Shown here: positions 18,557-62,082 of the stretch, piece by piece | How the letters are laid out: every line of letters starts with the position of its first letter | How positions within the stretch are numbered: position 1 is the stretch's first letter | Assembly (NCBI GenBank): GCA_963833605.1 | Contig: CAWHYZ010000003.1 | Span: 71,760-135,759 of the forward strand | DNA from: an uncultured Alphaproteobacteria bacterium | GTDB lineage: Bacteria; Pseudomonadota; Alphaproteobacteria; Rhizobiales; Xanthobacteraceae | Direction of reading: 5' to 3' | Length of the DNA stretch: 64,000 bases | Notes under the pieces: generated by a model | Seen by the model: the letters and a program-made list of their open reading frames with translations, nothing else | Database searches by the model: none | What the model was told of the DNA's origin: nothing | Translations under genes and position numbers: made by a program

Positions 18557-19733
<1,177 letters not shown>

Positions 19734-31212: not shown

Positions 31213-33910
31213 TCATGCCGTAAGCGGCAGCGCTGCGAGCATGATAGCCGGGTCGCCGGGGTCAGCGTCGATGCGGAAGCCCAACTCCCGGCACATGCGC
31301 AACATGGCGGTATTCTCGCGCAACACCTGCCCCTCGATCCGCCTGAGACCTTCGTTCCTGGCGTATTCGATCATCAACTCCATCAGCTTCCACCCCAGGC
31401 CCTGACCCTTGAGGTCGGAGCGCAACAGGATGGCGTATTCGCCCGACTCGTAGTTGGCATCGGAATGCAGGCGCACGACGCCGAGCAACTCGCGCCGGTC
31501 CTCGTCGATCGCCACGAAGGCCATCGCCCGCGCGTAGTCGATCTGCGTCAATCGGGCGATAAAGGCGTGACTGAATGCGCGCATTGGCGAAAAGAATCGC
31601 AGCCGCAGATCCTCCTGAGATACATGCGCGAAAAATTCGGGATAAAGGACCTCATCCTCCGGGCGCACCGGTCGCACGAAGATGCGCCGTCCGTGGTCAA
31701 GCGTGATATGGCGCTCCCACTCGGTCGGGTATGGTCTCACCGCAAAGCGCGGGTGTCCCGATCCTTTGAATTTCGGCTCCGCGGAGGCGACCGCAACCCG
31801 CGCGTCGAGGGCGATCAGGCCGTTCTCGTCGGCAAGCAGCGGATTGATGTCAAGCTCGCGTACCTGCGGGAGGTCGGCGGCGAGTTGCGCGATCTTCACC
31901 AGCGTCAACGCGAGATCATCTTCGTTCACGGCGGGAACGTCGCGATAAGCGCGCAGCAGGCGCGCGACACGGGTCTGGGCGATGAGATCGCGCGCCAGCT
32001 TCAGGTCGAGCGGCGGCAGCGCCAGCGCTTTGTCGTTGATGACCTCAACTGCAGTCCCGCCGCTGCCGAAAACGATGACCGGACCGAATGTCGCGTCGTC
32101 CGCGATGCCGACGATCAGTTCGCGCGCCTTCGGCTGCACAATCATGGGCTGAAGCGTAACGCCTAGAATACTCGCATCGGGGCGCAGGCGCTTGGCGCTG
32201 GCCATGATCTCGGCCACTGCGTTGCGCACCGCGGTAGTGCTGGTGAGGTTAAGCCGCACGCCGCCTACGTCCGATTTGTGCACGATGTCGCGTGACAGGA
32301 TTTTGGCGACGACCGATTGGCCGGCGCTCAGGAACTTTTCGGCAGCCACCGCGGCTTCCTCGGCGGTGCGTGCGAGGACGGTCGGTACCGTTGCAATTCC
32401 GTAAGCGCGCAACAGGTCCACGACTTCGAGCGGATCAAGCCAGCGGCGCCCGTCGGCACAAACGCCCTCGACGATCCGGCGTGCCGCTGCCGTGTCCGGC
32501 TGGATCTCGCGCGGCAAGCTGGGGGGCGTCTGCATCAACGCGTCGATCGCATCGCGGTGACGTACGATCTGCATGAAGCCGCGCACCGCGTCGGTTTCGG
32601 TCTCAAAATGCGGAATATTGGCATCGTTGAATGTTGCGGAGATCTTCGGCTCGGCGCCGACCCACAGTGCGAATACCGGCTTTGGCTGCGGCTTGCGCGC
32701 GCGCAGGTGGCGCACGACATCGGCCACCCGCGCCGCAATGGCGGCGGCCGGTGCGATTGCGGTTTGAACATTGATCGCCAGCACCGCGTCGATCTCAGGT
32801 GCTGCCAACAAGGTTTCGAGCGTGGCCTCATAGCGGGCGGCGTCGGCATCTCCGATGATGTCGACCGGGTTCGATCTCGACCACGTCGGCGGCAGCATGC
32901 GATCGAGCGCATCGCGCGTCGATGGTGTGATCTCCGCGAGCGTCCCGTTGAAGTCAGCGAGACGGTCGGCAGCCAGCACGCCGATGCCGCCGCCATTGGT
33001 CAGGATTGCAAGCCGGTTGCCATCGAGATGTCTGACACGCCCGAGCGTTTCGGCAGCATCAAACAGTTCGCCGAGATCGAGCACGCGTAACAGACCAGCG
33101 CGGCGAAACGCTGCGGCGTAGACCGCATCCGAGCCGGCCAGCGCGCCGGTATGGGTGGCGGCCGCCTTGGCTCCCGCCGCCTGGCGGCCGGCCTTGACCA
33201 CGACGACCGGTTTGACCCGGGCGGCAGCCCGCGCGGCCGACATGAACTTGCGGGCATCCTTGATCGACTCGACATAAAGCAAGATCGCGCGCGTCGATCG
33301 ATCGAGCGCGAAATAGTCGAGCAGATCGCCAAAATCGACGTTCGAGCTGGTCGCCGATCGATACGATCGCGGAAAATCCGACATGCCGCTGCGCGGCCCA
33401 GTCGACCATGCCTGCCGCGATCGCGCCGGATTGGGAAATCAACGCGAGTTCGCCGGCCATCGGCATGCTGGCCGCGAAGCTCGCATTGAGGTTCTGTCCT
33501 GGCACCAACACACCCAGACAATTGGGGCCGACAAGCCGTAATCCCTTGGCGCGCGCTGCCTGCTCGCAGGCTTGGGCGACTGAACCCGGGCCATGGCCGA
33601 GACCGGCCGTGATGATGATTGCGGCGGCCGCGCCCATCTGGGCCGATTGTGCCACCACGTCAGGCACCGCGGTCGGAGGAGCCGTGATGACGACCAGATC
33701 GGGAGGCCCCGAAAGCTCCGACAAATCCCGGATCGCCTGCAGTCCTTCGATCTCATGGTGCTTCGGGTTGACGAGCCACAGGGGGCCGGACCACCCGGCG
33801 CTGCGCAGATTGTTGAGGATCGCCCGGCCGACCGATTTTTCCCGCGGGCTCGCGCCGACCAGCGCGACCGAACGGGGAACGAACAGGCGATCAAGGCGAT
33901 AGGTCGACAT
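31213..33910 (-). pseudogene. Acetyl-CoA synthetase (ADP-forming)-like / GNAT fusion (Pat-type protein acetyltransferase), with an apparent 1-nt insertion near 33342
   Basis: ORF 33059..33922 gives the CoA-binding N-terminus up to ...FSAIVSIGDQ. ORF 31213..33384, in another frame, continues (S)SNVDFGDLLDYFALDRSTRAILLYVESI... and ends in a GNAT domain. The coding strand reads CAGCTCGAACGTCGAT, and CAGCTCGACGTCGAT would restore GDQLDVDFGD. Confidence 0.85.
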
Positions 33911-33928
33911 GACAGCGATCACGTAACC

Positions 33929-34043: not shown

Positions 34044-34057
34044 TTGACCTTCCTCAA
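34044..34057. promoter_or_regulatory. FixK/FNR-type box TTGACCTTCCTCAA
   Basis: Perfect TTGA-N6-TCAA. The centre lies about 63 nt upstream of the chaB-like ATG at 34114. Confidence 0.7.
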
Positions 34058-34113: not shown

Positions 34114-34323
34114 ATGCCCTATGCGACGAATGAAGATCTGCCCATTTCAGTGCGACGACATCTTCCGCCGCATGCGCAGGATATCTACCGCGAGGCGTTC
34201 AATCACGCCTTTTCGGCCTATCCGGCCGAAGAGGAGCGCGCGCATCGCATTGCCTGGTCTGCAGTCAAGCGGTCTTATGTCAAGGTCGGCGCAAGCTGGG
34301 TCGCGCGTGCGACTCACCAGTAA
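34114..34323 (+). CDS. ChaB family protein
   Basis: LP..VR..LP.HAQDIYREAFNHA........EERAHRIAWSAVKR.Y matches the ChaB fold signature. 69 aa. Confidence 0.8.
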   Translation: MPYATNEDLPISVRRHLPPHAQDIYREAFNHAFSAYPAEEERAHRIAWSAVKRSYVKVGASWVARATHQ

Positions 34324-34341
34324 CCAAGGAGAATCGCGATC

Positions 34342-34779
34342 ATGAAAAAATCAACCGCGACTAAGAGCGCGCCGGAGTTGGCAATCTCGCCTGAAAAGTT
34401 GTGCTTCATCATCGTCAAGGCGCATGAGTTCGACGCCAAAGACATCGTCACCGACCCCGACTTGGGCTCCAACGCGGCGGACGATGCAATGCTGTCCGTG
34501 CTTGAGGACCACAAGGACGATCCAGTGGTGTTTGAGCTCAGAGGCTTCATCGGCGCGCTAACCGAGGACGAGCAGATCGACCTGGTCGCCTTGGCTTGGC
34601 TCGGACGCGGCGATGGCTCCCTTGCGGACTGGGAGGAACTGCGTGCTGAAGCGGCGCGGGCCCACAACAAGCGCACTGCGTCCTATCTTCTGGGCATGCC
34701 GCTGCTGGCTGATTACCTGGAGGAGGGGTTGTCTGAGTTCGGGCGGTCTTGCGAAGAGTTCGAAATGGGGCGACTCTGA
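34342..34779 (+). CDS. DUF3775 domain-containing protein
   Basis: ISPEKLCFIIVKAHEFDAKD...LTEDEQIDLVALAWLGRGD...ASYLLGMPLLADYLEEGL. Confidence 0.8.
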   Translation: MKKSTATKSAPELAISPEKLCFIIVKAHEFDAKDIVTDPDLGSNAADDAMLSVLEDHKDDPVVFELRGFIGALTEDEQIDLVALAWLGRGDGSLADWEELRAEAARAHNKRTASYLLGMPLLADYLEEGLSEFGRSCEEFEMGRL

Positions 34780-34809
34780 ACCGCGATCCTGAGTTTGCAA
34801 GCCGGGCGC

Positions 34810-35835
34810 ATGACCAAGGAAGCTCCAGAGCCGAATGTCGCAGCGAGCGTTGGCGCGGGCGGTCGGTTACGCTTGTTCGCGCTTTCGGCAAGCGCCGAGA
34901 TGGGCGAGGCGGTGGCACGAATAATGGGTCAGGCGCTGGCAGCCCATGAAGAGCGGTCATTCGAAGATGGCGAGCACAAGATTCGGCCACTCGACGATGT
35001 CAGCGCCGCGGATGTTTATGTCATCCAGGGACTGCACGGCGGTCCAATCGAGGGCGTGAACGACAAGCTTTGCCGGCTCCTGTTTTTCATCGGCGCCCTC
35101 AAGGATGCGGGCGCCGCTCGCGTCACTGCCGTCGTTCCCTACCTGTGTTACGCGCGCAAGGACCGGCGGACCAAGCCGAACGATCCGGTGACGACACGTT
35201 ACGTCGCCCAGATGTTCGAAGCGGTGGGAACCGGTCAGATCATCTCGCTTGAAGTGCACAATCCGACGGCCTTCGAAAACGCGTTCCGTTGCCGTACGGT
35301 CATGCTCACGGCGACCCCGCTGTTCATCGACTATGTGCGAGGGCTGACGCAGGAGGTGCTTTGCGTCGTCTCACCCGATCCCGGCGGCGCGAAGCGAGCG
35401 GAGCTGTTTCGCGACGCCCTCGAGAGCACTTTGGGTCGCACGGTCGGTAAAGGCTTTGCCGACAAGCATCGCAGTGCCGGCGTTCTGTCCGGTGATCTTT
35501 TCGTCGGTGACGTTGCGGGAGCGACGGCTCTGATCATCGACGATCTGATCAGTACCGGCCACACGCTGCTGCGGGCCGCCGTGGCCGCCCGCCGGGCCGG
35601 CGCCCGCCGGGTGGTGGCGCTCGTTACGCACGGATTGTTCATGGCCGGGGCGGCGGAGGCTATCGCCGACCCCGCCATCGACCGGTTGGTGGTCACCGAT
35701 TCCGTGCCGCCGTTTCGCCTTGCGTCGGAAGTAGCCCGCCGCAAGGTCGACGTGCTGCCCGCGGCGCCGCTTCTGGCCGATGCGATTGGCCGCGTTCACC
35801 ACGGACGGGCGCTGACCGATCTGCTGGTCTTCTAG
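34810..35835 (+). CDS. Ribose-phosphate pyrophosphokinase (Prs) family protein
   Basis: F.DGE..IR......DVYVIQ, VPYL.YARKDRR and IIDDLISTGHT motifs. First ATG at 34810. Confidence 0.8.
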   Translation: MTKEAPEPNVAASVGAGGRLRLFALSASAEMGEAVARIMGQALAAHEERSFEDGEHKIRPLDDVSAADVYVIQGLHGGPIEGVNDKLCRLLFFIGALKDAGAARVTAVVPYLCYARKDRRTKPNDPVTTRYVAQMFEAVGTGQIISLEVHNPTAFENAFRCRTVMLTATPLFIDYVRGLTQEVLCVVSPDPGGAKRAELFRDALESTLGRTVGKGFADKHRSAGVLSGDLFVGDVAGATALIIDDLISTGHTLLRAAVAARRAGARRVVALVTHGLFMAGAAEAIADPAIDRLVVTDSVPPFRLASEVARRKVDVLPAAPLLADAIGRVHHGRALTDLLVF

Positions 35836-35935
35836 ACGAGAACCCGCAAAAGTGGGCAGCGGTTTTGCGTTCGATCGCGCGCCAACACCTTGATTTGCGC
35901 AGGATCTTTTCGGCGAATCGCTCACATTAGCCGGA

Positions 35936-37000
35936 TCATGCACGCATCAAGCGGGCGAGCTTTCTCGCGTCAGCCGCCGCGATTGCGAGATAGCTGCGGG
36001 CGAGCCGCGGCCATTTCGCCGGCGTGCGCGGATTGCCCTCCAGCAGGTGAGCGATGGCGAGGCGCGCCCGCAGGGTCGCGCGATGGCAGCGGTAGAACCA
36101 AAATAACGCCTCGGGCACATGGTCGCGTAGTCCCCGCATCACCCGCCGGCGCAGGTATTCGCCGGCCCAAACGGTGCCAAGCCGTTCGCATTCAAGGTCG
36201 AGGAAGGCGACTTCGTCCAACGGGTCGACCGCGCGCAGCCGGTCGTTGAATTCGAGGCAATCGATGATCCGCACCGGATCCCCCAGCCAGATGTGTTCCG
36301 GGCGCAGATCCCCGTGCCCGTCGACAATCCATCGGCCGCGCACGCGCCGCTCGAGGAGATCGCGACGTTGCGCCAGAAACCGGCGTTGCAGCCCGTCGAG
36401 CTGCATGATCAGGCCTGCCGGCAAGTGGAAGCGCGGGTCGAGCAGAACCCTGCGGTTATAGGCAAGACTCTTCCACCAGTCGGATAGATGGATCTCGGCT
36501 GCAATTGGTGACCTCACGGAGCGCCGGTAGAATTGCACGAGTTTCGCCACTAGGCGGTCGAGCTGCCAGGTTTCGAGGGAACGCTGTCCGAGTGCATGGG
36601 CAAGGGTCTCAGTCTCATCGAGGCGGCGCATGACGACAAGCCAGTCGATGACGGGGCCGGGGCCTCCCAGCGCCAGTCCTACATTCGGACCGGAGCAGGT
36701 TCCGCTTGGCGTGGCGGTCAGCGCCGCTACATCGAGATAGACATCGGGTGCGAGGCGGCGATTGAGCCGGAGCTCGGCTCGACAAGCCGCCTCCCGGCGC
36801 GCCAGCGTGGAGAAATCGAGGTAGGAGAAGCAAACCGGCTTCTTGAGTTTGTAGGCACGCTCACCTGCGAGAAAAACCCACGACATGTGGGTCTCGCGGC
36901 AGGCAACGGTGTCGACCTCAGGCCCATAGGTTGCCGGGCGGCAGAGGAAGGCAACCTTTTGCTCTAGAGTGGTTTGGGCAGGCCTTGACCGATCGGACAC
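35936..37000 (-). CDS. Aminoglycoside-phosphotransferase-fold kinase-like protein. It resembles the N-terminal half of 'bifunctional APH/ATP-binding' proteins of the Rv2004c type (recalled, not searched).
   Basis: Catalytic-loop-like DGHGDLRPEHIW and IDCLEF. An AAGGAG SD at 37012-37007 is followed by GTG codons at 37003 and 37000, so I prefer one of these over the TTG at 37024. Confidence 0.65.
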   Translation of the reverse strand: MSDRSRPAQTTLEQKVAFLCRPATYGPEVDTVACRETHMSWVFLAGERAYKLKKPVCFSYLDFSTLARREAACRAELRLNRRLAPDVYLDVAALTATPSGTCSGPNVGLALGGPGPVIDWLVVMRRLDETETLAHALGQRSLETWQLDRLVAKLVQFYRRSVRSPIAAEIHLSDWWKSLAYNRRVLLDPRFHLPAGLIMQLDGLQRRFLAQRRDLLERRVRGRWIVDGHGDLRPEHIWLGDPVRIIDCLEFNDRLRAVDPLDEVAFLDLECERLGTVWAGEYLRRRVMRGLRDHVPEALFWFYRCHRATLRARLAIAHLLEGNPRTPAKWPRLARSYLAIAAADARKLARLMRA

Positions 37001-37050
37001 CACCAGCTCCTTGCTGATCGGCAAATCTAGCGAGACACTGGCGCGTGCAG

Positions 37051-37064
37051 TTGACGCCGATCAA
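37051..37064. promoter_or_regulatory. FixK/FNR-type box TTGACGCCGATCAA between divergent genes
   Basis: Perfect TTGA-N6-TCAA. A -41.5 geometry predicts a minus-strand transcription start site (TSS) near 37016, just upstream of the AAGGAG SD of the kinase-like gene. Confidence 0.7.
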
Positions 37065-37097
37065 AACGTTTGATCCGTGGCGGACTAGGATTTGACT

Positions 37098-37787
37098 ATG
37101 CCTTTTCGCAATCGTTCGGAAGCGGGACAAAGACTGGCTGCCGCGCTGGCCGAATACCGGCGCGAACACGTGACTGTGCTGGCGCTGCCGCGTGGCGGCG
37201 TCCCGGTCGCTGCCGAAATCGCCCAGGCGCTCGAGGCTCCGCTCGATCTGATCCTGGTCCGCAAGGTGGGAGTGCCATTTCAGCCCGAGCTTGCCATGGG
37301 TGCGGTCGTCGACGGCAGCGAGCCGGTTATTGTCCGCAATCACGACGTGATCGCATTGACCGGTATCAGCGAGGAGGAATTCGAGAGCGTCTGCGAACGT
37401 GAGCTCACCGAAATCGAACGCCGGCGGCAACGCTACCTTGCTGATCGCGAGCGTGCTCCGATCGCCGGACGCGTGGTGATCGTCATCGATGACGGCATCG
37501 CCACGGGCGCGACCATGCGGGCAGCTCTCCAGGCCACCCGACAACGTCAGCCGCGCAAGCTTGTGCTGGCCGTACCGGTCGCGCCCAGCAGCACGCTGAG
37601 AGAGTTACGGGACGAAGCCGACGAAATCATCTGTCTTGAGGATCACGAAAACTTCGGCGCCATTGGCTACTTTTACAGGGATTTTCGGCAAGTGACCGAC
37701 GACGAGGTCATCGAGCTACTCGCGCGCTATCCGGTTCGGCGAGCAAGCGACACCGAGAAGACGCAGCCAAGAGGGGCGGTTTCGTGA
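37098..37787 (+). CDS. Phosphoribosyltransferase family protein
   Basis: MPFRNRSEAGQRLA...VLALPRGGVPVA, IVIDDGIATGATM. The first ATG is at 37098 and AGGA lies 7 nt upstream. Confidence 0.85.
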   Translation: MPFRNRSEAGQRLAAALAEYRREHVTVLALPRGGVPVAAEIAQALEAPLDLILVRKVGVPFQPELAMGAVVDGSEPVIVRNHDVIALTGISEEEFESVCERELTEIERRRQRYLADRERAPIAGRVVIVIDDGIATGATMRAALQATRQRQPRKLVLAVPVAPSSTLRELRDEADEIICLEDHENFGAIGYFYRDFRQVTDDEVIELLARYPVRRASDTEKTQPRGAVS

Positions 37788-37812
37788 TCGGACCCCGTCG
37801 GGGGAGTGGGAG

Positions 37813-38622
37813 ATGTCGTACGTTTCCATAATGGTCTATTGCGACGGGGAGTCGGAACGTATTCGGCTGGCCATCGAGCTTGCCGAACGCTTCAAAGCAC
37901 GCCTGATCGGGGTTGCGGCGCGTGCCCCGATACCGGTGGTGACCGGAGAAGACGCGGCAATTGATGCGGCGCTGCTGCAACAGGAGAACGCCGCCGTGCG
38001 TGCCTTCCTCGACAAGGCGGGCGAGCAGTTTCGCGCTGTAGCGGGGAAATGCGAGACACCGATCGAGTGGCGATCCGCGCCGGACATTCCCAACGATTTC
38101 GTGGCCCGCGAGGCCCGCGCTGCCGATCTGGTGATTGTCGGCCAAACCCCCACCGCGGACCATCGCTCGCTCGCCGTCGGCAGCCTGTTGCTCAAGGCCG
38201 GCCGCCCGGTACTGGTCGCACCGCGCGCACTCGCTTCACTCCCCGCCCGGCACGCTGTCGTGGCGTGGAAGGATACGCGCGAAGCACGCCGTGCCGTGCG
38301 TGATGCCCTTCCGTTCCTGCACAGAACAGAAAACGTGGCGCTCGTCGCGGTTTGCGAATGGGGCGCCGAAGCGACAGCCTTGCGCCAGCTCAAGGATGTC
38401 GCTCGCTTCCTTGCGCAGCATCACATCACCAATGTGACGGAACGCGTGCTGCCCGACGAGCCGGTCGCGGGCGACGTGCTGCTGCGGTTTGTTGGAGATG
38501 AGCGCGCCGATCTCCTGGTCGCTGGAGCCTATGGTCACAGTCGCCTCGGGGAATGGATATTCGGAGGCGTAACGCGAGACTTGCTGACTAAAAGCTCGGT
38601 CTGTTGCCTATTTTCCCATTGA
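37813..38622 (+). CDS. Universal stress protein (tandem USP domains)
   Basis: 269 aa. C-terminal motif ADLLVAGAYGHSRLGEWIFGGVTRDLL. Confidence 0.85.
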   Translation: MSYVSIMVYCDGESERIRLAIELAERFKARLIGVAARAPIPVVTGEDAAIDAALLQQENAAVRAFLDKAGEQFRAVAGKCETPIEWRSAPDIPNDFVAREARAADLVIVGQTPTADHRSLAVGSLLLKAGRPVLVAPRALASLPARHAVVAWKDTREARRAVRDALPFLHRTENVALVAVCEWGAEATALRQLKDVARFLAQHHITNVTERVLPDEPVAGDVLLRFVGDERADLLVAGAYGHSRLGEWIFGGVTRDLLTKSSVCCLFSH

Positions 38623-38842: not shown

Positions 38843-39067
38843 CTAAGCTTTCGCGAAGCTTATTTCCGCACCCTGCAACTCGTCGATCAGGTGCTCATCG
38901 AGCGTGTCGTACAGGGCGCCGATGCTGGGCGCTCGTTGCAATTTCTGCTCACGCAGCCGGGCCCAGGCATCGGCGCAAGCAGCGCCGAAGCTTGCCGCGT
39001 CAACCACGTCGTAAGTCCCTTCGTACCAGGCCGTGCCGTCTTTCTTGATCCGCAATTTGATGAGCAT
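38843..39067 (-). CDS. Hypothetical small protein (74 aa from MLIKLRIKKDG)
   Basis: ORF only. The start was chosen because the near-FixK box at 39133-39146 predicts a TSS near 39098, which is downstream of the ORF-track start at 39106. Confidence 0.4.
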   Translation of the reverse strand: MLIKLRIKKDGTAWYEGTYDVVDAASFGAACADAWARLREQKLQRAPSIGALYDTLDEHLIDELQGAEISFAKA

Positions 39068-41730: not shown

Positions 41731-42885
41731 ATGTGGGCGCTGCAGCGCTTTGCCCCCGAGCAGCGGCAGCTGTTTCTCCGATTCTGGAAGAGCGCCTCCG
41801 GCTTTTGGCGGGGACGCGCGGCCTGGATCGCGTGGTCTCTTACAATCTCGCTCATTGTCGTCGTGCTGTTGCAACTCTTCATCCAATACGAGTTGAATCT
41901 GTGGAACCGCAACTTTTTCGATGCGCTCGGACGGCGGAGTTCACGCGATCTGTGGCGACAGGTGCTGATGTTCTTTCCGCTGATCGCGTGCAGTGTTGTG
42001 CTCGCTACCGCCTCAGTCTGGGGCCGCATGACCGCGCAGCGGCGGTGGCGGCAATATCTGACTGCGCAGCTGATTTTGTATTGGTTGGCCAGGGGTCGCT
42101 ACCGTCGACTCAACTACTTGCAGCACGGGCGGGAGAACCCGGAATATCGGATCGCTGAGGACGCACGTTTGGCTACAGATTCCCCAATCGATCTGGGCCT
42201 CGGGCTTCTATCCTCATCGCTGATAGCGGTGACGTTCATCGGGGTATTGTGGACCGTGGGAGGCAGCCTCGTCGTCGAGGCGTTCGGAACGACTTTTGCG
42301 CTGCCCGGTTATCTGGTCATTAGCGTCATTATCTATTCGACCGTGATCACCGGCGCGATGATGCTCATCGGGCGCTCGTTGACAATCGTCATTCAGTCCA
42401 AGAACCAGGCCGAGGCCGAGCTGAGGTCGACGGCGAACACGCTGCGTACGAACGCCGAAAGAGCCGCTATCGCGGAGGATGAAGCAGCGGTGCGCCGTGA
42501 GCTCTGGCACGCACTCAAGGGGGCTCTCGCGCGCTGGCGAGACCTGTGCTCGCAACTCGTGCGCACGACCTTGGTGCTGCAGACCAACACCTTGCTGGCG
42601 CCGGTGGTCGGTCTGGTTCTATGCGCCCCGAAATTTCTGTCCGGCGCGATGACGCTGGGCGAACTGACACAGGCGGCGGCCGCGTTCGTGCTGGTGCAGA
42701 GCGCGTTCAACTGGCTCGTCGACAACTATCAGCGGCTGGCAGACTGGGTCTCGTCCGTAAATCGCGTGGCTACGCTCTTGCTTGCTCTTGATGAGCTTTG
42801 CGAGGTTGAAAGACGCACGCCGGCAGCCGGAACCGCGCACGCGGACCAGCGAGCTCAGACGCGTGCCGCCGTCACCTCCGGGTAG
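41731..42885 (+). CDS. SbmA/BacA-like family transporter (transmembrane domain only)
   Basis: FW.SASGFWRG, LNLWNRNFFDAL, ENPEYRIAEDARLATD motifs. 384 aa. Confidence 0.8.
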   Translation: MWALQRFAPEQRQLFLRFWKSASGFWRGRAAWIAWSLTISLIVVVLLQLFIQYELNLWNRNFFDALGRRSSRDLWRQVLMFFPLIACSVVLATASVWGRMTAQRRWRQYLTAQLILYWLARGRYRRLNYLQHGRENPEYRIAEDARLATDSPIDLGLGLLSSSLIAVTFIGVLWTVGGSLVVEAFGTTFALPGYLVISVIIYSTVITGAMMLIGRSLTIVIQSKNQAEAELRSTANTLRTNAERAAIAEDEAAVRRELWHALKGALARWRDLCSQLVRTTLVLQTNTLLAPVVGLVLCAPKFLSGAMTLGELTQAAAAFVLVQSAFNWLVDNYQRLADWVSSVNRVATLLLALDELCEVERRTPAAGTAHADQRAQTRAAVTSG

Positions 42886-43794
42886 AGCCGCTCGAACGTC
42901 CTCGCGCCGGCAGAGTTCGGTTCCTGTGTGCAGCAGCGCAGCCGAGCCAGCGGCCATTGCCAACCGGAACGCATCTGCGAGGTTTCGCCCCGCGGCCAGT
43001 CCGAAGACCATGCCGCCCAAAAAGCTGTCGCCTGCTCCGACGGTGCTGGCTGGTACGATCGGCAGCGCCGGGCTGCGCCAGATTGCATCCCGCGTAAACA
43101 GCATTGCTCCCTGATGACCGAGCGTCAGAGCCACCATCTCGGCGCGGCCTTCGCCAACGAGGCGCGATCCAGCCGCGATCCATGCCGTCTCGTCGGGCAA
43201 TGGCCGTCCCAACAACTCGCCAAGCTCGCGCAGGTTGGGCTTGGCCAGGTAGACTCCCGCCGCAAGCGCCGCGGCCAGCGGCGGTCCCGACGTATCGAGC
43301 ACCAGCCGTGCACCCCAACCGCTGACGATCCGGCCAACACGCGCATAGAAATCGTCCGGAGCACCAGGTGGCAGGCTGCCGCTGGCCACCACGTACGCCG
43401 GTTTTGGCTGAATCGACTTCAGAACATCGAGGCAGGAACGCCACTCGGCCTCGCTCATAAGCGGGCCTGGCAACACAAACCGATATTGCTGGCCCGTTTC
43501 GAGCTCGCATACCGTGAAGTCCTCGCGCGTCTCCTCCGCGGCATCGCATGTGAGTTGCGGGATTTGCTCGCTTTCGACCAAACGCCGGAGAAGTTGACCA
43601 GTGGCACCGCCGGCCGGATAGACGGCGGACACATCTCCACCCAGCCGCTTGACCACGCGGGCCACATTGATGCCGCCGCCGCCGGCATCCCGACGCTGCG
43701 CGGAGCAGCGCAATTTTTGGATCGGCCGAACCCGATCGACGCTGGTTGATACATCGATCGCCGGGTTCACCGTTAGGGTGACGATATGGTCCAT
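42855..43794 (-). pseudogene. PfkB-family sugar/1-phosphofructokinase-type kinase with an apparent 1-nt insertion near 42895
   Basis: ORF 42619..43794 has PfkB motifs (GGGGINVARV, TVGAGDSF). After ...ELCRREDV it runs on into the convergent SbmA-like gene. In the -1 frame, ERLYPEVTAARV* gives a natural C-terminus with a stop at 42855. Confidence 0.8.
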
Positions 43795-43819
43795 AGAATC
43801 GTGCTCGATGGTGCCATCG

Positions 43820-45167
43820 TCAGGCCGTCGATACGTCTTGTTTGATCATATCCGCATACCAAGCAAACGAAGCCTTCGGAATGCGCCGCTGCGTAGCGTA
43901 GTCCATGTACACGAGGCCGAATCGCGATCCGTATCCTGAGTTCCATTCGAAATTGTCGAGCAACGACCATACGAAATAGCCGCGAACGTCGGCCCCGGCC
44001 CGTATCGCGCGGCGCATCGCGTCGGTATAGGACCGCAGGTAATCGATGCGCCCTTGATCGATGATCTGCCCCGAATTCGTCGGGGCTCTCGCTTGCACCG
44101 AAGCCGTTTTCCATCACGTAGATCGGCAGTTGGTAGCGGCGGTGGAGAGCCAGCAACGTTTCGCCGAATGCCTGAGGATCGATCGCCCAACCGACTCCCG
44201 TTCGCTTCTTCTCGGGCGGAGGATCGGTCAATCGAAAACCCAGCTGCGAACCGGGGTCGGCTTTTACATAGATCGGTGAATAGTGATTGAGTCCGAACCA
44301 GTCGACCGGCCGGCAGATGCGTGCGAGATCACCGGCTTGCTGGAACGGCTCGATGTCGCCCGCCAGCAAAGCCGGATAGCAGGCTTGCAACTGCGGATCC
44401 GGCATCGCCCCGTTCCAGTAGGCCTCGAGCAGGTTGCGCGCAGCTTCGTCCTCAGGCGTTGCCGGGACGCACGGTTGATAGTTATGGATTGCACCGATGG
44501 ACGCCTTCGGCACGTGTGCGCGCAGCGCGTCGACGCCGGCGCCGTGGGCGAGATTGACATGATGGATCGCGCGCAGCAGGGCTGCACGATCGGTCAGACC
44601 CGGGGCATGCCAGCCGAATCCATAGCCGAGCAGCGTGAAGAGCGAAGGCTCGTTGAAGGTGGCGAACCGCTTGACGCGATCGCCGTAGCGACGTGCGACG
44701 AGCGTCGCATAATCGGCAAACCAGCCGGCACACTCGCGATTGGTCCAGCCGCCGCGATCGTCGAGCGCCTGAGGGAGGTCCCAATGATAGAGGCAGAGCC
44801 AGGGCTCTATGCCGGCCGCCAGCAAGGCGTCGATCAGACGGTCGTAAAAGGCGAGGCCGGGCTCGTTGGCCGCGCCGCGGCCGGCGGGAAGCACGCGCGG
44901 CCACGCCGTCGAAAAACGATAGGCACGTATCCCGAGATCGCGCATCAACGCGATGTCCTGGTCGTAACGGTGGTAGTGATCGCACGCGACGTCGCCGGTA
45001 TCACCGTTGGCGACCCGCCCCTTCTGCCGACAGAACGTATCCCAGATGCTGGCGCCGCGCCCGTCCTCATTCGCGGCCCCTTCGATCTGATAGCTCGCGG
45101 TGGAAACGCCCCAAACAAACCCGGCGTTTGTTTGGTCTGCTCCACGCGAATCGCTAGTCGGCGGCAT
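43820..45167 (-). pseudogene. GH1 beta-glucosidase with an apparent 1-nt insertion near 44066-44080
   Basis: FVWGVSTASYQIEGA, TFNEP and YVMENGFG in ORF 43773..45206. The conserved tail RIDYLRSY...GYFVWSLLDNFEWNSGY...FGLVYMDY is in another frame (ORF 43820..44098). The start ATG at 45167 overlaps the GH4 stop (ATGA). Confidence 0.85.
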
Positions 45168-46447
45168 CAGACACACGTCCTGATGTAGGGCTTGTTCACC
45201 TCCCACAGCTCATCGAGCAAGCTCGCTGCGGCAGTGGTCGAGGTCACGACCGGGTCGATCAGCAACGCCTGCATGGCCATCTCCTTGGATGCGTGCACCG
45301 CCGCTTCCACCGCCAATTGCTGTACGCTCGCCTGCATCGACAGCAACTTTGCGATTGGGTCCGGCAGCGGGCCGAGCGAAATCGGGTGAATACCGGCGGC
45401 ATCCGCCAACAGCGGTACCTCAACCGCCAGATCGGGCGCCAGATTCGGAATGACACCCCGATTGTAGACGATGCCGGACTCGATGAACCGCTTTCTGTTG
45501 TGAACGATTCCCTCGATCACTGCGACCCCGCGCTCGCCGGACGGCGTGAGCCAGTCCGCCGGCGGCGGCATGCTTCCGGACAGGACATCGTGCAACGATT
45601 TTGCGAACGCGGCGCGTTCCGCCTCGTCGCGCGCAAAATCATGACCCTGTTCGCCCGCTTCCCAACCATAGGGAACGTATTCGCCCATGTGTTCGTCGCT
45701 GCAGGTCACCCACCATCCGAAGGCGTGGAACAGGCGGCGGCTGAGCGGCGCAAACGTCGGATCGTGATCCGGTTCGCTTGCGCGCAGCCGCGGGTAGAGA
45801 TCCTCACCGGTCACGCGATGCCGGATGTGCAGCAGCCATTGAAAATGGTTCAGGCCGGCGCCCCATACCTCAACGTCTTCCTTCGGCATGTCCATGATGT
45901 GCGCAACGTAGTCGCGGCCACCGAAGATACCCTCGCACAGGCCGAGCGCACGTGTGCGGCTGTACTTGCCGAGCGCCAGAATGATGCGGCTCTCGGGGTT
46001 GGAAAAATTGATCAGCAACGCGTTCGGGCAGAGCTCCTCCATGTCGCGGACGAAATCGAAAACGAGGGGCAGTGTCCGCAATGTGAAGAACAGTCCTCCG
46101 GGGCCGCCATTCTCGCCCAGGGTTTGATGAATCCCGTATTTCTTGGGAATTTCGAAATCGGGCTTCCAAAGCCGGTTCCTGTCGATCACCGTCGCATTGA
46201 TGACGAATGCTGCCCCCGGCAGCGCACGGCGCCGCTCGGTCGTGGACTCGATCGTCACGCCGGCACTGGTTTTCGTATTCAGTAGTCGGGCAAGCTGCGT
46301 CATTTGCGCGAGCTTTCCGGCATCGGTATCCACCAGTACCAGCGTGCTGCCCGACATCTCCCCGCACGAGAAGATATCCCTGAACAGGCTCAGCCCGAAC
46401 GACATGCTACCGGCGCCGATGAAGACAATTTTGGTTGTGTTTGCCAT
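45167..46447 (-). CDS. Glycoside hydrolase family 4 (NAD/Mn-dependent alpha-glucosidase/galactosidase type)
   Basis: N-terminal Rossmann [23 protein letters not shown] and NHFQW motifs. 426 aa. Confidence 0.8.
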
Positions 46448-49430: not shown

Positions 49431-49763
49431 ATGACGAGTTACATGCCTCTTTGGCGATGGATGTGCCGGCTCCTGATCGCGGTCGGGCCGATATCGGTGG
49501 CGACTGCGGGGACGCTTGAGGATCAAGGCAAGGTGTTGTTGACCCGACTCTGCGCCCAGTGCCACGCAGTCGGACGAACCGGGACGAGCCCTCACCTCGG
49601 AGCGCCGCCGTTTCGCACGATCGGGGATCGCTACAACATCGCTGAATTGACCGAGAGAATGACCGACCGGCTGATCTCGACGCATCCCGACATGCCGGAC
49701 TTCCATTTCAGCGAGGACAATGCCAAGGCGGTGCGCGCCTATTTGTATTCGATACAGCAGTAA
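49431..49763 (+). CDS. Small mono-haem cytochrome c
   Basis: Signal-like N-terminus, CAQCH haem motif and a THPDMP candidate Met ligand. Confidence 0.75.
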   Translation: MTSYMPLWRWMCRLLIAVGPISVATAGTLEDQGKVLLTRLCAQCHAVGRTGTSPHLGAPPFRTIGDRYNIAELTERMTDRLISTHPDMPDFHFSEDNAKAVRAYLYSIQQ

Positions 49764-49868
49764 GTGCGACGCTCCGCCGGGACGACCGAGCGTACGGGAT
49801 CGTGCATCTGCATCGCCGAATTACTACGATCGCGGCCGAAATTGATCTTACGCAAGCGCGGCGGTCGC

Positions 49869-52437: not shown

Positions 52438-53562
52438 ATGCCCGGCGTCGACGATTATCCGCTTGCCGCTCTCGGCCTGCTCTGGCCGGCGATCATCGCA
52501 GAGCAGGCAAGCGAATTGGCAACTGCTTGGACGCAGGGGCTGCTCGATCTTGCCAACGCCCATGGTGAGCCACCGGGTGCCGAGCCAGGCTGGGTGACAC
52601 CCAACGAGGTCGTGCTTGACCTCGAGAGCGTGCGGCTACGCGGCTTTTGCACCTCCGCAAAAGGGCAACCCATTTTGGTCTGTGCGCCGTTTGCCCTGCA
52701 CGGTGCCGCCATCACCGACATCGCGCCTGGCCATAGTCTGGTTGAAGCGTTGCACGCGACAACGCAGAGCCCGGTGTTCGTGACGGATTGGCGGTCGGCC
52801 ACTGCCAGCATGGGTTTGCGTGCCATTGACGATTACCTCGCCGATCTCAACGTGCTCGTCGATGAACTCGGAGGAGCGGTCGATCTCATTGGGCTCTGCC
52901 AAGGCGGTTGGATGGGGCTTGCGTACGCGACACGCTTCCCCAGGAAAGTGCGCAAGCTGGTGCTGGCAGGGGCGCCGATCGACATCAGTGCCGCCGACAG
53001 CGCCTTGTCGCGAATTGCGCAGTCGACGCCTTTGAGCGTGTTCAAGGAATTGGTGGCTCTTGGCGGCGGCCGCATGCTGGGACGCAGCCTGTTTCGTTTC
53101 TGGGAGCCGAGATCGCTTGAAACTGAGGCCATTCACTCGACGTTGCAAAGTGCTCAGGCGATGGACACGGAAGCATTCCGCCGGCTCGCTGCGCGCTTTC
53201 GCGAATGGTACGCATGGACGCTCGATTTGCCCGGCCGCTACTATCTCGAAGTGGTCGAACGGCTTTACCTGAACAACGAGCTCGCGACCGGGCGGTTCAT
53301 GGCGCTCGGCCGACGCATCGACCTAGCCGCCGTGCAAGTGCCTGTTTTCCTGCTTGCCGCGCGTGATGATCAAGTCGCTGCCCCGGCCCAGACCCTGGGT
53401 CTTCGGCAGCTGATCGGGACGCCGCCGGCGGGGATCCGCCACGTCGTTGCGCCAGGCGAGCACCTCGGACTCTTCATGGGGTGCCGAACGCTCGCCAACG
53501 AGTGGCGTGAGATCGGGGCGTGGCTGGCGCAGCCGGATCCGGCTCTGTCGGACGCTGCCTGA
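52438..53562 (+). CDS. Alpha/beta-fold protein resembling a class III/IV PHA synthase catalytic subunit
   Basis: Lipase-box-like GLCQGGW (G-x-C-x-G-G) with downstream Asp (ARDDQV) and His (GEHLGLF) candidates. 374 aa. No phaE-like partner is adjacent. Confidence 0.65.
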   Translation: MPGVDDYPLAALGLLWPAIIAEQASELATAWTQGLLDLANAHGEPPGAEPGWVTPNEVVLDLESVRLRGFCTSAKGQPILVCAPFALHGAAITDIAPGHSLVEALHATTQSPVFVTDWRSATASMGLRAIDDYLADLNVLVDELGGAVDLIGLCQGGWMGLAYATRFPRKVRKLVLAGAPIDISAADSALSRIAQSTPLSVFKELVALGGGRMLGRSLFRFWEPRSLETEAIHSTLQSAQAMDTEAFRRLAARFREWYAWTLDLPGRYYLEVVERLYLNNELATGRFMALGRRIDLAAVQVPVFLLAARDDQVAAPAQTLGLRQLIGTPPAGIRHVVAPGEHLGLFMGCRTLANEWREIGAWLAQPDPALSDAA

Positions 53563-62062: not shown

Positions 62063-62082
62063 AGCGCCAGACGTGCTTTGAT
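62050..62082 (-). terminator. Terminator-like hairpin after fixJ, overlapping the next gene's FixK box and start region
   Basis: The minus strand reads ATCAAAGC-ACGTCTGGC-GCTTTGAT followed by GTTTTCTG. The 8-bp stem is modest. Confidence 0.4.

What the first reader, a model, noticed from the sequence alone, without database searches (positions are those of the whole stretch)
34114..38622. An uncharacterised PRPP/nucleotide-linked module under FixK boxes
The module is ChaB, DUF3775, a Prs-like gene, an APH-fold kinase, a PRTase and a USP. Two FixK boxes (34044 and 37051) head this cluster.

It pairs a second-copy-type ribose-phosphate pyrophosphokinase with a stand-alone phosphoribosyltransferase. 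Alongside are an aminoglycoside-phosphotransferase-fold kinase-like protein, a tandem USP and two small domains of unknown function.

No pathway I know explains this combination.

Much of the island's content also occurs in the mycobacterial DosR dormancy regulon: USPs, an Rv2004c-like protein, an Rv0571c-like PRTase, a PfkB kinase (Rv2029c-like), CBS proteins (Rv2626c-like) and a P-type ATPase (CtpF-like). That regulon is controlled by an unrelated regulator.

This suggests a convergently recruited, functionally coherent hypoxia/dormancy toolkit whose biochemistry is still unknown.
Confidence: medium-low.
Basis: inference. Interest (0 to 1): 0.65.

Follow-up and report, generated by a model that had tools for sequence, protein, structure and literature searches.

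The report
Low-oxygen PRPP synthase–kinase gene module
This stretch carries a low-oxygen-controlled gene set whose conserved core is an extra PRPP-synthase gene paired with an uncharacterised kinase gene, which suggests how non-growing bacteria keep nucleotide and NAD pools alive and gives a testable lead on two unexplained tuberculosis dormancy genes.

Summary
All six genes sit at the stated coordinates. Both TTGA-N6-TCAA boxes exist, and the window holds 7 such boxes against 0.59 expected.

The conserved unit is not Prs plus PRTase. It is the Prs-like gene plus the kinase-like gene.
- The two genes lie together in 78 of 80 related genomes, from Alpha-, Beta- and Gammaproteobacteria.
- They are fused into one 704-aa protein in one lineage and form a same-strand operon in another.
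- The kinase-like protein has an APH/choline-kinase fold and is homologous to the N-terminal domain of Rv2004c-type proteins.

Frequent companions are the TT1426-type PRTase (49/80 loci), a dienelactone hydrolase (35/80), and the NAD-salvage genes PncB (27/80) and PncA (18/80). An exact FixK-type box lies inside the module in 54 of 80 loci.

My best reading is a microoxia-induced PRPP supply-and-use route for nucleotide and NAD salvage. The kinase's substrate is unknown.

The broader idea of an FNR-box island that mirrors the DosR regulon was already published for the Burkholderia cenocepacia lxa locus. The USP, CBS and P-type ATPase parallels hold only at superfamily level. The Prs–kinase pairing itself has no literature I could find.

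The parts
34044..34057 (.). FixK/FNR-type box 1 (TTGACCTTCCTCAA). It lies in the divergent promoter region between the Pat-like acetyltransferase gene and chaB.
   Evidence: Exact TTGA-N6-TCAA match. The window has 7 such boxes against 0.59 expected. The box centre is 63 nt upstream of the chaB ATG.
34114..34323 (+). chaB-family small protein (69 aa), first gene of the chaB-DUF3775-prs operon.
   Evidence: PF06150, E=2.5e-22. Same position in L004. Within 10 kb of the kinase gene in 15/80 loci. A natural DUF3775+ChaB fusion exists, P0344.
34342..34779 (+). DUF3775 protein (145 aa): acidic, all-alpha, function unknown.
   Evidence: PF12616, E=4.9e-31. AF2 model pLDDT 78, all-helical. No Foldseek PDB match, best E 0.5. 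No functional literature. Present in 15/80 loci.
34795..35835 (+). Prs-like ribose-phosphate pyrophosphokinase. The start is TTG 34795 or, more likely, ATG 34810. It belongs to a divergent subfamily.
   Evidence: TIGR01251 scores 230 bits, but all equivalog models are below cut-off. About 33% identical to B. subtilis Prs 1DKR, E=6e-45. Catalytic residues are 100% conserved in 74 family members, with family-specific changes Q103K, Q47K, N49R and G142N. Next to the kinase gene in 78/80 loci.
35936..37000 (-). Kinase-like protein (354 aa from GTG 37000), stand-alone COG2187-type domain with APH/choline-kinase fold. It is convergent with prs-like.
   Evidence: AF2 pLDDT 90.4. Foldseek hits are only APH, ChoK, MTR-kinase and capreomycin-phosphotransferase structures, E 3.6e-6 to 1e-3. 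Invariant K51/K53, E76, H229-G-D231, H236, D247. Homologous to Rv2004c-type proteins. Fused to Prs-like in P0158.
37051..37064 (.). FixK/FNR-type box 2 (TTGACGCCGATCAA), in the 97-bp divergent region between the kinase-like gene and the PRTase gene.
   Evidence: Exact match. The centre is 57 nt upstream of GTG 37000, which matches the -58 to -74 spacing typical of the 36/80 related loci that have a box upstream of the kinase gene. It lies only 40 nt upstream of the PRTase ATG 37098, so a class II promoter there would give a leaderless mRNA (inference).
37098..37787 (+). Type I phosphoribosyltransferase of the TT1426 (1WD5) family, substrate unknown.
   Evidence: PF00156, E=9e-18. 1WD5, E=7e-41, aligned from residue 1. 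PRPP loop VVIVIDDGIATGATM is present. Within 10 kb of the kinase gene in 49/80 loci. Found fused to erythromycin esterase or alpha/beta hydrolase elsewhere.
37813..38622 (+). Tandem universal stress protein (269 aa), downstream of the PRTase gene.
   Evidence: PF00582, two stretches, E=2.7e-11. Same PRTase-USP order in L004 and L097. No PDB sequence hit.
38843..39067 (-). Conserved small protein (74 aa) of unknown function, a recurrent neighbour of the module.
   Evidence: 80% identical to the 74-aa gene in L004. A gene of the same size with no Pfam hit sits next to the kinase gene in L001. tblastn hit in 22/80 loci. No Pfam or PADLOC hit.
31213..33922 (-). Pat-type protein acetyltransferase (ADP-forming acyl-CoA synthetase-like domains plus GNAT), divergent from chaB and sharing box 1. 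It is read as two overlapping frames.
   Evidence: CoA_binding_2, Succ_CoA_lig, ATP-grasp_5 and GNAT domains are split over ORFs 33059-33922 and 31213-33384. It is also split in the close relative L097.
42895..43794 (-). PfkB-family hexose kinase, part of the same FixK-box island.
   Evidence: 58% identical to the L001 PfkB and 48% to the Rhodococcus PfkB that sits next to the Rv2004c-type gene. TIGR03168 scores 294 bits against a cut-off of 216.

Best explanation
This is part of a FixLJ/FixK-type low-oxygen stress island.

Three transcription units make up the finding:
- chaB-DUF3775-prs-like, read from box 1.
- The kinase-like gene, read from box 2 and convergent with prs-like.
- PRTase-USP, read divergently from box 2.

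The functional core is the Prs-like enzyme working together with the kinase-like enzyme. I propose that the Prs-like protein is an extra PRPP synthase, catalytically intact but differently regulated. It would keep making PRPP when oxygen and energy charge are low.

The PRPP would be consumed by salvage phosphoribosyltransferases. Here that is the TT1426-type PRTase. In many relatives it is also nicotinate PRTase, working with nicotinamidase. The result would be that bases released by RNA and NAD turnover are recycled instead of being re-synthesised.

The kinase-like protein would carry out an ATP-dependent phosphorylation in the same route. The most likely substrate is an anionic ribose-type metabolite that feeds, or derives from, the Prs reaction.

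**Shown:** gene content, folds, conserved catalytic residues, conserved adjacency, a natural fusion, and conserved boxes.
**Inferred:** PRPP synthesis by this isozyme, its altered regulation, the salvage role, the kinase substrate, and actual oxygen control.
For: **Prs-kinase link**
- Adjacent in 78/80 loci spanning Xanthobacteraceae, Methylocella, Stella, Gluconacetobacter, Caulobacterales, Rhodoferax/Polaromonas and Halomonas. About 71 of these are immediately convergent.
- Natural fusion P0158 (704 aa), found on 7 contigs.
- Same-strand Prs-then-kinase operon in L090, where the kinase is 37% identical.
- The locus of the HPPK-kinase fusion still carries Prs-like, DLH and PRTase genes.

**Enzymes look active**
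- All Prs catalytic positions are 100% conserved, while Q103K, Q47K, N49R, G142N and the C-terminal SVS motif differ.
- The kinase keeps the Lys/Glu pair, the HGD catalytic loop and the metal-binding Asp. It has many invariant Arg and His residues.
- The PRTase keeps its PRPP loop.

**Salvage link**
- PRTase in 49/80 loci, DLH in 35/80, PncB in 27/80 and PncA in 18/80.
- PncB identity is confirmed by NF006696 at 633 bits against a cut-off of 503.
- A nadE-prs operon lies next to the kinase gene in Methylocella tundrae.

**Low-oxygen control**
- 7 boxes in the window against 0.59 expected.
- FixL and FixJ are encoded in the window.
- 54/80 loci have at least one exact box inside the module, at 0.32 per kb against about 0.009 per kb by chance.
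- A box lies upstream of the kinase gene in 36/80 loci.
- Hsp20, GroEL, HPF, USP and CBS genes are recurrent neighbours.
- B. diazoefficiens induces a different second Prs (bll3116) in microoxia (PMC6515984).
Against: - No expression or biochemical data exist for any member.
- The window itself has no pncA, pncB or nadE. NAD genes accompany only about a third of the loci.
- Halomonas and Rhodoferax loci have no exact box, so FixK control is not universal.
- The kinase has His in place of the canonical Brenner-motif Asn. The mycobacterial homologue has Asp there. Chemistry other than simple phosphotransfer is therefore possible.
- The kinase domain is also fused to AAA_33 P-loop kinases, to HPPK and to DUF2267. 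A pure ribose-feeding role does not explain these fusions.
- The base specificity of the PRTase is unknown.
- Whether these genomes also have a canonical prs gene could not be checked.
Confidence: 0.45

Rival explanations
1. The kinase-like protein is not a metabolic enzyme. It is a regulatory partner of the Prs-like enzyme: a protein kinase, a nucleotide-sensing pseudokinase, or an associated subunit like the PRPP-synthetase-associated proteins. It would tune PRPP synthesis to energy status.
For: Pairing is strict (78/80 loci) and a fusion exists, as expected for proteins that interact physically. The canonical Asn of the catalytic loop is replaced by an invariant His. No known small-molecule kinase family matches by sequence. 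The fold family is the protein-kinase-like fold; from general knowledge it also contains protein kinases, but none appeared among the hits.
Against: All top structural matches are small-molecule kinases. The catalytic Asp, the Lys/Glu pair and the metal-binding Asp are invariant, so this is not a degenerate pseudokinase. The same domain is fused to P-loop kinases and to HPPK. That pattern looks more like consecutive metabolic steps than regulation of one target.
Confidence: 0.2
2. The module makes a dedicated, still unknown phosphoribosylated metabolite, such as a signal, cofactor precursor or storage compound. Prs would make PRPP, the TT1426-type PRTase would attach an unusual base or acceptor, the kinase would phosphorylate the product, and the frequently linked dienelactone hydrolase would process it.
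For: The PRTase family has no assigned substrate. Its only structure, 1WD5, is a 'hypothetical protein'. It is repeatedly adjacent or fused to hydrolases: DLH in 35/80 loci, and fusions to alpha/beta hydrolase and erythromycin esterase. The kinase substrate is also unknown. Invariant basic residues in the kinase suggest an anionic ligand.
Against: The PRTase is missing from 31/80 loci and DLH is missing from the window, so the four-step chain is not conserved as a unit. Nothing points to a specific acceptor. The NAD salvage genes offer a simpler sink for PRPP.
Confidence: 0.2
3. There is no common pathway. The genes are independent stress genes that sit together only because FixK/FNR-regulated islands are mosaics of co-regulated genes.
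For: Island content is variable. ChaB and DUF3775 are each in 15/80 loci and the tandem USP in 5/80. A 94-96% identical relative has a 3.1-kb insertion between prs-like and the kinase gene. Many unrelated stress genes (Hsp20, GroEL, PolX, RtcB, Lon-like) come and go.
Against: The Prs-kinase pair persists across three proteobacterial classes in three arrangements: convergent, co-directional and fused. Mosaic co-regulation does not produce that pattern.
Confidence: 0.08
4. The module is an anti-phage defence or toxin-antitoxin system that uses a PRTase-type effector.
For: A weak PADLOC hit of the PRTase to ShosT (E=4e-4), covering only the PRPP-binding loop.
Against: None of the other six proteins has a PADLOC hit. 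The context is stress and metabolism genes with FixK boxes, not mobile or defence genes.
Confidence: 0.02

Closest known systems
Low-oxygen-activated (lxa) locus of Burkholderia cenocepacia (Sass et al. 2013, PMC3721108)
   Same: A proteobacterial island preceded by FNR/Anr-type TGA-N6-TCA motifs. It encodes multiple USPs, alpha-crystallin/Hsp20, a phosphofructokinase, PHA synthesis genes and a cation ATPase. Its authors explicitly noted the overlap with the M. tuberculosis DosR regulon.
   Different: The passages of that paper returned by my term search do not describe a Prs-like/COG2187 kinase pair, a TT1426-type PRTase, ChaB or DUF3775; 'pyrophosphokinase' does not occur in its text. The window's island is linked to FixLJ. 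I did not compare lxa sequences directly.
M. tuberculosis DosR/DevR regulon loci Rv2005c-Rv2004c-Rv2003c and Rv0569-Rv0574c (Rv0571c, pncB2)
   Same: Rv2004c is described as COG2187 plus a gluconate-kinase-like domain (PMC1950094). The window kinase is homologous to that domain family, including a Mycobacterium protein (E=3e-43) that sits among nitroreductase, USP and P-type ATPase genes. Rv0571c is a putative PRTase of unknown function. It is DevR-controlled, as is the Rv0574c-Rv0573c (pncB2) operon. The PRTase + hydrolase + PncB (+ CapA-like) combination recurs next to the proteobacterial module.
   Different: The regulator family differs: a DosR response regulator rather than a CRP/FNR-type box. 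The window kinase is stand-alone, lacks the P-loop domain and has His (not Asn or Asp) in the catalytic loop. I know of no Prs-like gene in the DosR regulon (memory only). Sequences from M. tuberculosis H37Rv itself were not available, so orthology to Rv2004c, Rv0571c and Rv2030c is inferred through Rhodococcus and Mycobacterium sp. homologues.
Class I ribose-phosphate pyrophosphokinase (Prs; B. subtilis 1DKR, E. coli, human PRPS1)
   Same: The same two-domain fold and the same catalytic residues: FxDGE, the RxDR motif, the active-site His, the SPDxGG loop, the K-x-R flexible loop and the DD...TG.T ribose-5-phosphate loop.
   Different: About 33% identity. It scores below every NCBIfam equivalog cut-off. 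Family-wide substitutions include Q103K, and positions that I recall as allosteric or regulatory are changed, including the C-terminal SVS motif. It is encoded in a stress island or on plasmids, which suggests an accessory isozyme.
Aminoglycoside phosphotransferase / choline kinase / 5-methylthioribose kinase superfamily
   Same: The predicted bilobal kinase fold, the ATP-binding Lys/Glu pair, the HGD catalytic loop and a downstream metal-binding Asp.
   Different: TM-scores are only 0.45-0.55 and identity is at most 17%. The Pfam APH model does not hit. The canonical Asn is replaced by an invariant His, giving HGDLRPEH. No substrate is known.
Thermus thermophilus TT1426 (PDB 1WD5), structural-genomics PRTase
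   Same: Full-length homology, E=7e-41, with the same PRPP loop.
   Different: TT1426 itself has no assigned function. It appears only in computational function-prediction papers.
Microoxia-induced bll3115-bll3117 cluster of Bradyrhizobium diazoefficiens (PMC6515984)
   Same: A second 'ribose-phosphate pyrophosphokinase' (bll3116) is induced under microoxia in a related alphaproteobacterium.
   Different: The partners differ: an MBL-fold hydrolase and a thymidine-phosphorylase-family protein. No COG2187 kinase is reported. Sequence relatedness to the window Prs-like protein was not tested.

Membership tests
FixK/FNR-regulated low-oxygen island | Palindromic TTGA-N6-TCAA boxes in promoter positions, more frequent than chance | tested here: met
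   7 boxes against 0.59 expected, and 0/100 shuffles reach 7. Six are intergenic. 54/80 related loci have a box inside the module.
FixK/FNR-regulated low-oxygen island | Cognate regulators encoded (FixL, FixJ, FixK) | tested here: inconclusive
   FixL (62721-63971) and FixJ (62129-62731) are present, together with an orphan receiver. No CRP/FNR-family gene turned up among the ORFs I annotated in this 64-kb window.
FixK/FNR-regulated low-oxygen island | Induction under low oxygen, dependent on the regulator | not testable with these tools
   This needs RNA or reporter data from a cultured carrier strain.
Class I PRPP synthase (Prs) | Two PRT-type domains with the conserved catalytic residues | tested here: met
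   Pfam and TIGR01251 hits. Catalytic positions are 100% conserved in 74 sequences.
Class I PRPP synthase (Prs) | Scores as an equivalog of housekeeping Prs | tested here: not met
   All NCBIfam equivalog models are far below cut-off, for example 187 against 506 bits.
Class I PRPP synthase (Prs) | Canonical allosteric/regulatory-site residues | tested here: inconclusive
   Several positions differ family-wide: Q47K, N49R, Q103K, G142N and loss of the C-terminal SVS. My mapping of these positions to the allosteric site rests on memory of the B. subtilis and human structures.
APH/choline-kinase-type small-molecule kinase | Protein-kinase-like bilobal fold | tested here: met
   Foldseek probability 1.0 to 34 APH/ChoK/MTRK structures at E<=1e-3, with TM 0.45-0.55.
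APH/choline-kinase-type small-molecule kinase | Brenner motif HxDxxxxN plus a downstream metal-binding Asp | tested here: not met
   The motif is HGDLRPEH, with the Asn replaced by His in about 97% of the 150 cluster representatives. The metal-binding Asp (IIDCLEF) is present.
APH/choline-kinase-type small-molecule kinase | Match to the Pfam APH (PF01636) sequence model | tested here: not met
   No Pfam hit at E<=0.01. Only a 'faint' APH hit is recorded for a distant relative.
Rv2004c-type bifunctional protein (COG2187 + P-loop kinase) | Homology of the N-terminal COG2187 domain | tested here: met
   E=1e-33 to L001 APH+AAA_33. E=3e-43 to the Mycobacterium sp. SM1 494-aa protein. Rv2004c is described as COG2187 in PMC1950094. 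H37Rv itself was not compared.
Rv2004c-type bifunctional protein (COG2187 + P-loop kinase) | C-terminal AAA_33 P-loop kinase domain | tested here: not met
   The window protein ends after the kinase-like domain, and there is no AAA_33 sequence in the window. AAA_33 is within 10 kb in only 3/80 loci.
TT1426-type type I PRTase (the family I recall as COG1926; Rv0571c/Rv2030c PRTase domain) | PRPP-binding loop and full-length similarity to 1WD5 | tested here: met
   E=7e-41 over residues 1-209.
TT1426-type type I PRTase (the family I recall as COG1926; Rv0571c/Rv2030c PRTase domain) | Fusion or adjacency to a hydrolase domain (alpha/beta hydrolase/DLH, or erythromycin esterase) | tested here: not met
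   No DLH in the window. DLH is present in 35/80 related loci, and fusions occur in Salipiger and Rhodococcus.
Anti-phage defence system | Match to known defence protein models | tested here: not met
   Only a marginal ShosT hit limited to the PRPP loop (E=4e-4). The other six proteins have no hit.

The most novel reading that the evidence does not exclude
COG2187-type kinase domains, both the stand-alone 'HGDLRPEH' form here and the domain in Rv2004c-type proteins, would be enzymes of a previously unrecognised ribose-phosphate/PRPP-linked pathway. The pathway would operate with a dedicated PRPP synthase isozyme and TT1426-type PRTases. Its role would be to maintain NAD and nucleotide pools, or to make a new phosphoribosylated metabolite, in oxygen-starved, non-growing bacteria. 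It would be shared between Proteobacteria under FixK/FNR control and Mycobacteriales under DosR control.
Probability: 0.25. Interest if true: 0.75.

Novelty: new variant of a known kind. Interest (0 to 1): 0.55.

Why it matters
Low-oxygen stress islands and the mycobacterial DosR regulon contain several genes that have stayed functionally blank for two decades. Examples are Rv2004c and Rv0571c/Rv2030c. One meta-analysis gave Rv2004c the highest growth-inhibition score among devR-regulon genes (PMC1950094).

This work shows that the homologous kinase domain is evolutionarily locked to an accessory PRPP synthase: adjacent in 78/80 loci and fused in one lineage. It also shows that the PRTase travels with hydrolases and NAD-salvage genes. 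Together these give a concrete biochemical hypothesis that can be tested in tractable, non-pathogenic bacteria such as Sinorhizobium, Paraburkholderia and Methylocella.

The hypothesis is that PRPP supply for salvage is a dedicated, regulated function of hypoxic non-growth.

If the module turns out to be only a backup Prs with accessory genes, the finding is an ordinary extension of known FixK regulons.

Tried and rejected
- **Kinase-like protein, sequence searches.** Pfam, NCBIfam, and PDB searches with single sequence and with profile gave nothing. Only structure prediction plus Foldseek identified the fold.
- **Exact look-up of the window kinase.** This failed. The likely reasons are an uncertain start codon and indel noise in the assembly.
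- **DUF3775.** The literature search returned one irrelevant paper. The AF2 model has no Foldseek PDB match. The fold and role remain unknown.
- **PADLOC scan.** No defence assignment.
- **USP against PDB.** No hit, so no Rv2623-type relationship is detectable.
- **CBS against PDB.** Rv2626c is only a generic CBS hit. I rejected specific orthology for both USP and CBS.
- **NadE as a regular partner.** It occurs in only 3/80 loci.
- **Rv2004c-type two-domain gene as a regular neighbour.** It occurs in only 3/80 loci.
- **Terminator and sigma-70 promoter scans of the region.** Nothing above chance.
- **Direct comparison with M. tuberculosis H37Rv proteins.** This was not possible. The last homologue search, seeded with the Rhodococcus protein, returned Mycobacterium sp. 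but no M. tuberculosis entry among the best 120.
- **PRPP review PMC5312242.** Not held, so my mapping of allosteric-site residues rests on memory.
- **TT1426/1WD5 literature.** Only computational function-prediction papers.
- **HPPK-kinase fusion (P0164).** I considered it a clue to pterin metabolism and set it aside. It is a single case, and its locus still carries Prs-like, DLH and PRTase genes.

Full report

Yes. The ORFs at the stated coordinates encode the following.
- A ChaB-family protein, 34114-34323 (PF06150, E=2.5e-22).
- A DUF3775 protein, 34342-34779.
- A Prs-like ribose-phosphate pyrophosphokinase, 34795/34810-35835.
- A 354-362-aa protein on the minus strand, 35936-37000/37024.
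- A type I phosphoribosyltransferase, 37098-37787.
- A tandem USP, 37813-38622.

The exact palindromes TTGA-N6-TCAA sit at 34044 and 37051. The window holds 7 of them against 0.59 expected from shuffles, and no shuffle reached 7. FixL, FixJ and an orphan receiver gene lie at the right end of the window.

The neighbouring genes fit a low-oxygen stress island:
- a Pat-type acetyltransferase;
- two CBS-BON proteins and one CBS protein;
- an SbmA/BacA-like transporter;
- PfkB;
- an MlaD protein;
- a P1B-type ATPase with a hemerythrin tail;
- PhaC and a PHB-depolymerase-like hydrolase;
- c-type cytochromes.

The left 30 kb of the window is ordinary housekeeping DNA.

**2. The kinase-like protein**

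No Pfam, NCBIfam or PDB sequence search recognises it. An AlphaFold model built on 41 homologues is confident (pLDDT 90.4, pTM 0.87). Its only significant structural neighbours are small-molecule kinases of the protein-kinase-like fold. These include choline/ethanolamine kinases, aminoglycoside, capreomycin and spectinomycin phosphotransferases, and 5-methylthioribose kinase (E 3.6e-6 to 1e-3, TM about 0.5).

Across diverse homologues the expected catalytic elements are invariant: the YKLKKP lysines, Glu76, the H229-G-D231 catalytic loop, and Asp247 in IIDCLEF. The canonical Asn of the catalytic loop is an invariant His, giving HGDLRPEH.

The family is large. It has 10,224 cluster representatives at E<=1e-3.

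It is a paralogue of the N-terminal domain of the 'bifunctional aminoglycoside phosphotransferase/ATP-binding protein' class (APH-like plus AAA_33):
- 31% identity, E=1e-33, to such a protein in L001.
- 36.6% identity to a Rhodococcus plasmid protein flanked by PfkB, PpsA, CBS and USP genes.
- 35% identity, E=3e-43, to a Mycobacterium sp. SM1 protein flanked by a nitroreductase, two USPs and a P-type ATPase.

The literature describes Rv2004c as COG2187 plus a gluconate-kinase-like part (PMC1950094). It places Rv2004c in the DevR-controlled Rv2005c operon (PMC3177182).

The window has no two-domain copy.

**3. What is actually conserved**

A scan of one genome per species returned more than 527 relatives. 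I examined the best 80 loci.

- The Prs-like gene lies within 10 kb of the kinase gene in 78 of 80 loci. Three of these 78 were recovered only as partial or frameshifted hits. About 71 are immediately convergent with the kinase gene.
- The carrier lineages run from Xanthobacteraceae, Methylocella, Bradyrhizobium, Stella, Gluconacetobacter and Caulobacterales to Rhodoferax/Polaromonas and Halomonas.
- In a more distant relative (37% identity) the two genes form a same-strand operon.
- In another lineage they are fused into one 704-aa protein, seen on 7 contigs from several samples. The Prs half of that fusion carries the same subfamily signatures as the window protein.

Companion genes, by number of loci out of 80:

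| Companion | Loci | Calls |
|---|---|---|
| TT1426-type PRTase | 49 | 47 |
| Dienelactone hydrolase (DLH) | 35 | 58 |
| Nicotinate PRTase PncB | 27 | 58; identity confirmed by NCBIfam, |
| HPF plus cold-shock-domain protein | 27 | 58 |
| 74-aa unknown protein, also in the window at 38843-39067 | 22 | 58 |
| Nicotinamidase PncA | 18 | 58 |
| ChaB | 15 | 47 |
| DUF3775 | 15 | 47 |

The neighbour families were found by unbiased clustering of ORFs around the kinase gene and then counted by tblastn.

Two further points:
- ChaB and DUF3775 are themselves found fused (P0344).
- In Methylocella tundrae, prs-like is co-directional with NAD synthase.

**4. Regulation**

Exact boxes are about 20-fold enriched across the 80 loci (0.18 per kb). 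Inside the module itself the density is 0.32 per kb, and 54/80 loci have at least one box there.

A box lies upstream of the kinase gene in 36/80 loci, mostly 58-74 nt from the start. In the window, box 2 is 57 nt from GTG 37000.

Box 2 is only 40 nt from the PRTase ATG, whose position is fixed by alignment to TT1426 from residue 1. If the box also drives the PRTase gene as a class II site, the mRNA would be leaderless. This is inference.

Halomonas and Rhodoferax loci lack exact boxes, so control there must differ.

**5. Are the enzymes likely to be active?**

I aligned 74 Prs-like sequences with B. subtilis Prs. Every catalytic position is 100% conserved. These are FxDGE, Arg102/Asp104/Arg105, His136, SPDxGG, Lys198/Arg200 of the flexible loop, and the DD...T-G-x-T ribose-5-phosphate loop.

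Several other positions differ family-wide: Q103K, Q47K, N49R, G142N, and loss of the C-terminal SVS motif. From memory of the B. subtilis and human structures, some of these belong to the ADP/phosphate allosteric site. That underlies my suggestion of an isozyme with altered regulation, which remains inference.

The protein fails every NCBIfam equivalog cut-off. It is often plasmid-borne in cultured strains. Both facts fit an accessory copy, but I could not check for a housekeeping prs in the same genomes.

The PRTase keeps its PRPP loop, and its closest structure has no known function.

**6. Mechanism**

The best-supported reading is a microoxia-induced PRPP supply-and-use route. It has three parts:
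- an accessory PRPP synthase;
- salvage PRTases that consume the PRPP (the TT1426-type enzyme, and PncB with PncA in many relatives);
- a coupled kinase step of unknown substrate.

Three rivals are not excluded: the kinase as a regulator of Prs, a dedicated unknown phosphoribosylated metabolite, and mere co-regulated mosaicism. A defence-system reading is rejected.

The kinase domain is also fused to AAA_33 P-loop kinases, to HPPK and to DUF2267. It occurs in three-domain proteins that carry both the Asn-type and the His-type kinase domains. These fusions argue for a role in multi-step phosphoryl chemistry, but they do not identify the substrate.

**7. Comparison with what is known**

The general concept is published. 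Sass et al. (PMC3721108) described the B. cenocepacia lxa locus as a proteobacterial island under FNR-type boxes whose content overlaps the DosR regulon.

In B. diazoefficiens, a different second Prs (bll3116) is microoxia-induced (PMC6515984).

The DosR parallels fall into two groups:
- Real at the level of homology: the kinase domain, the PRTase domain and PfkB.
- Only at superfamily level: the USP, the CBS proteins and the P-type ATPase.

One extra parallel emerged. In M. tuberculosis, Rv0571c (a putative PRTase) lies two genes from the DevR-controlled Rv0574c-pncB2 operon. In Proteobacteria the homologous PRTase travels with a hydrolase, with PncB and occasionally with a CapA-like gene. 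My identification of Rv0574c as CapA-like, and of the Rv0571c and Rv2030c domain architectures, is from memory.

Shared homologous sub-clusters under unrelated regulators fit horizontal spread with regulator replacement at least as well as convergence.

I found no literature on DUF3775's function, on COG2187 function, or on the Prs-kinase pairing.

**8. Verdict**

The island type is known. The Prs-like/COG2187-kinase module is an uncharacterised, widely conserved variant within it.

Interest is moderate. The finding gives a specific, testable biochemical lead for long-unexplained dormancy genes, but no function has yet been shown.

Noticed in passing
window 31213-33922 (-), 43773-45206 (-), 42619-43794 (-), 18870-19733 (+): Several genes look frameshifted or truncated. 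The Pat-type acetyltransferase is split over two overlapping frames. A GH1 beta-glucosidase has its C-terminus in another frame (43820-44098). PfkB reads about 80 aa past its usual end. A thiolase ORF lacks its first ~110 residues. The 94-96% identical relative L097 also has split Prs, kinase and Pat genes, and its contig name looks like long-read assembler output. Indel sequencing errors are therefore more likely than true pseudogenes.
   Followed up: partly
window 49431-52205 (+): A heavy-metal (P1B) P-type ATPase carries a C-terminal hemerythrin domain. It is preceded by a small c-type cytochrome and a CBS-BON protein. This could be an oxygen- or NO-sensing metal pump. A 48% identical ATPase lies near the module in Sinorhizobium sojae.
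   Followed up: no
window 53032-53045: One of the seven FixK-type boxes lies inside the annotated alpha/beta-hydrolase (PHB-depolymerase-like) ORF 52438-53562 rather than in an intergenic region. Either the gene model is wrong or there is an internal promoter.
   Followed up: no
window 61667-63971 (-): fixL, fixJ and an orphan receiver gene, with a FixK-type box at 62078 just upstream of the receiver gene. No fixK (CRP/FNR) gene was found in the window. An HlyD-like gene (60429-61553) and a large ABC-2 transporter follow.
   Followed up: partly
L097 11542-14652 (relative of window 35836-35935): A 94-96% identical relative has a 3.1-kb insertion exactly between the convergent prs-like and kinase genes. 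The insertion carries transglutaminase-like and N-formylglutamate amidohydrolase genes.
   Followed up: partly
P0125, P0130, P0171 (cluster representatives): Three-domain proteins of 660-900 aa combine an Asn-type COG2187 domain (HGDLHLGN), an AAA_33 P-loop kinase and a His-type COG2187 domain (HGDLRPEH). The two kinase-like paralogues therefore probably work together.
   Followed up: partly
window 38843-39067 (-); L004 5723-5947: A conserved 74-aa protein with no Pfam or PADLOC hit accompanies the module in 22/80 loci.
   Followed up: partly
Loci L032 and others (families 17 and 19): An RtcB RNA ligase (recognised by eye from its sequence, not scanned against a library; tblastn hits in 7/80 loci) and a putative archease (family 19, 6/80 loci) sit near the module. 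From memory, RtcB (Rv2631) is also in the DosR regulon. One search lists Rv2631 in the Rv2628 operon.
   Followed up: no
L100 6376-7845 (Rhizobium daejeonense plasmid): The Prs-like protein here is 489 aa, with an unexplained N-terminal extension of about 170 aa. It is divergent from the kinase gene, with a single FixK-type box between them.
   Followed up: no
P0152 (cluster representative): A fusion of the His-type kinase domain with DUF2267. Its significance is unknown.
   Followed up: no
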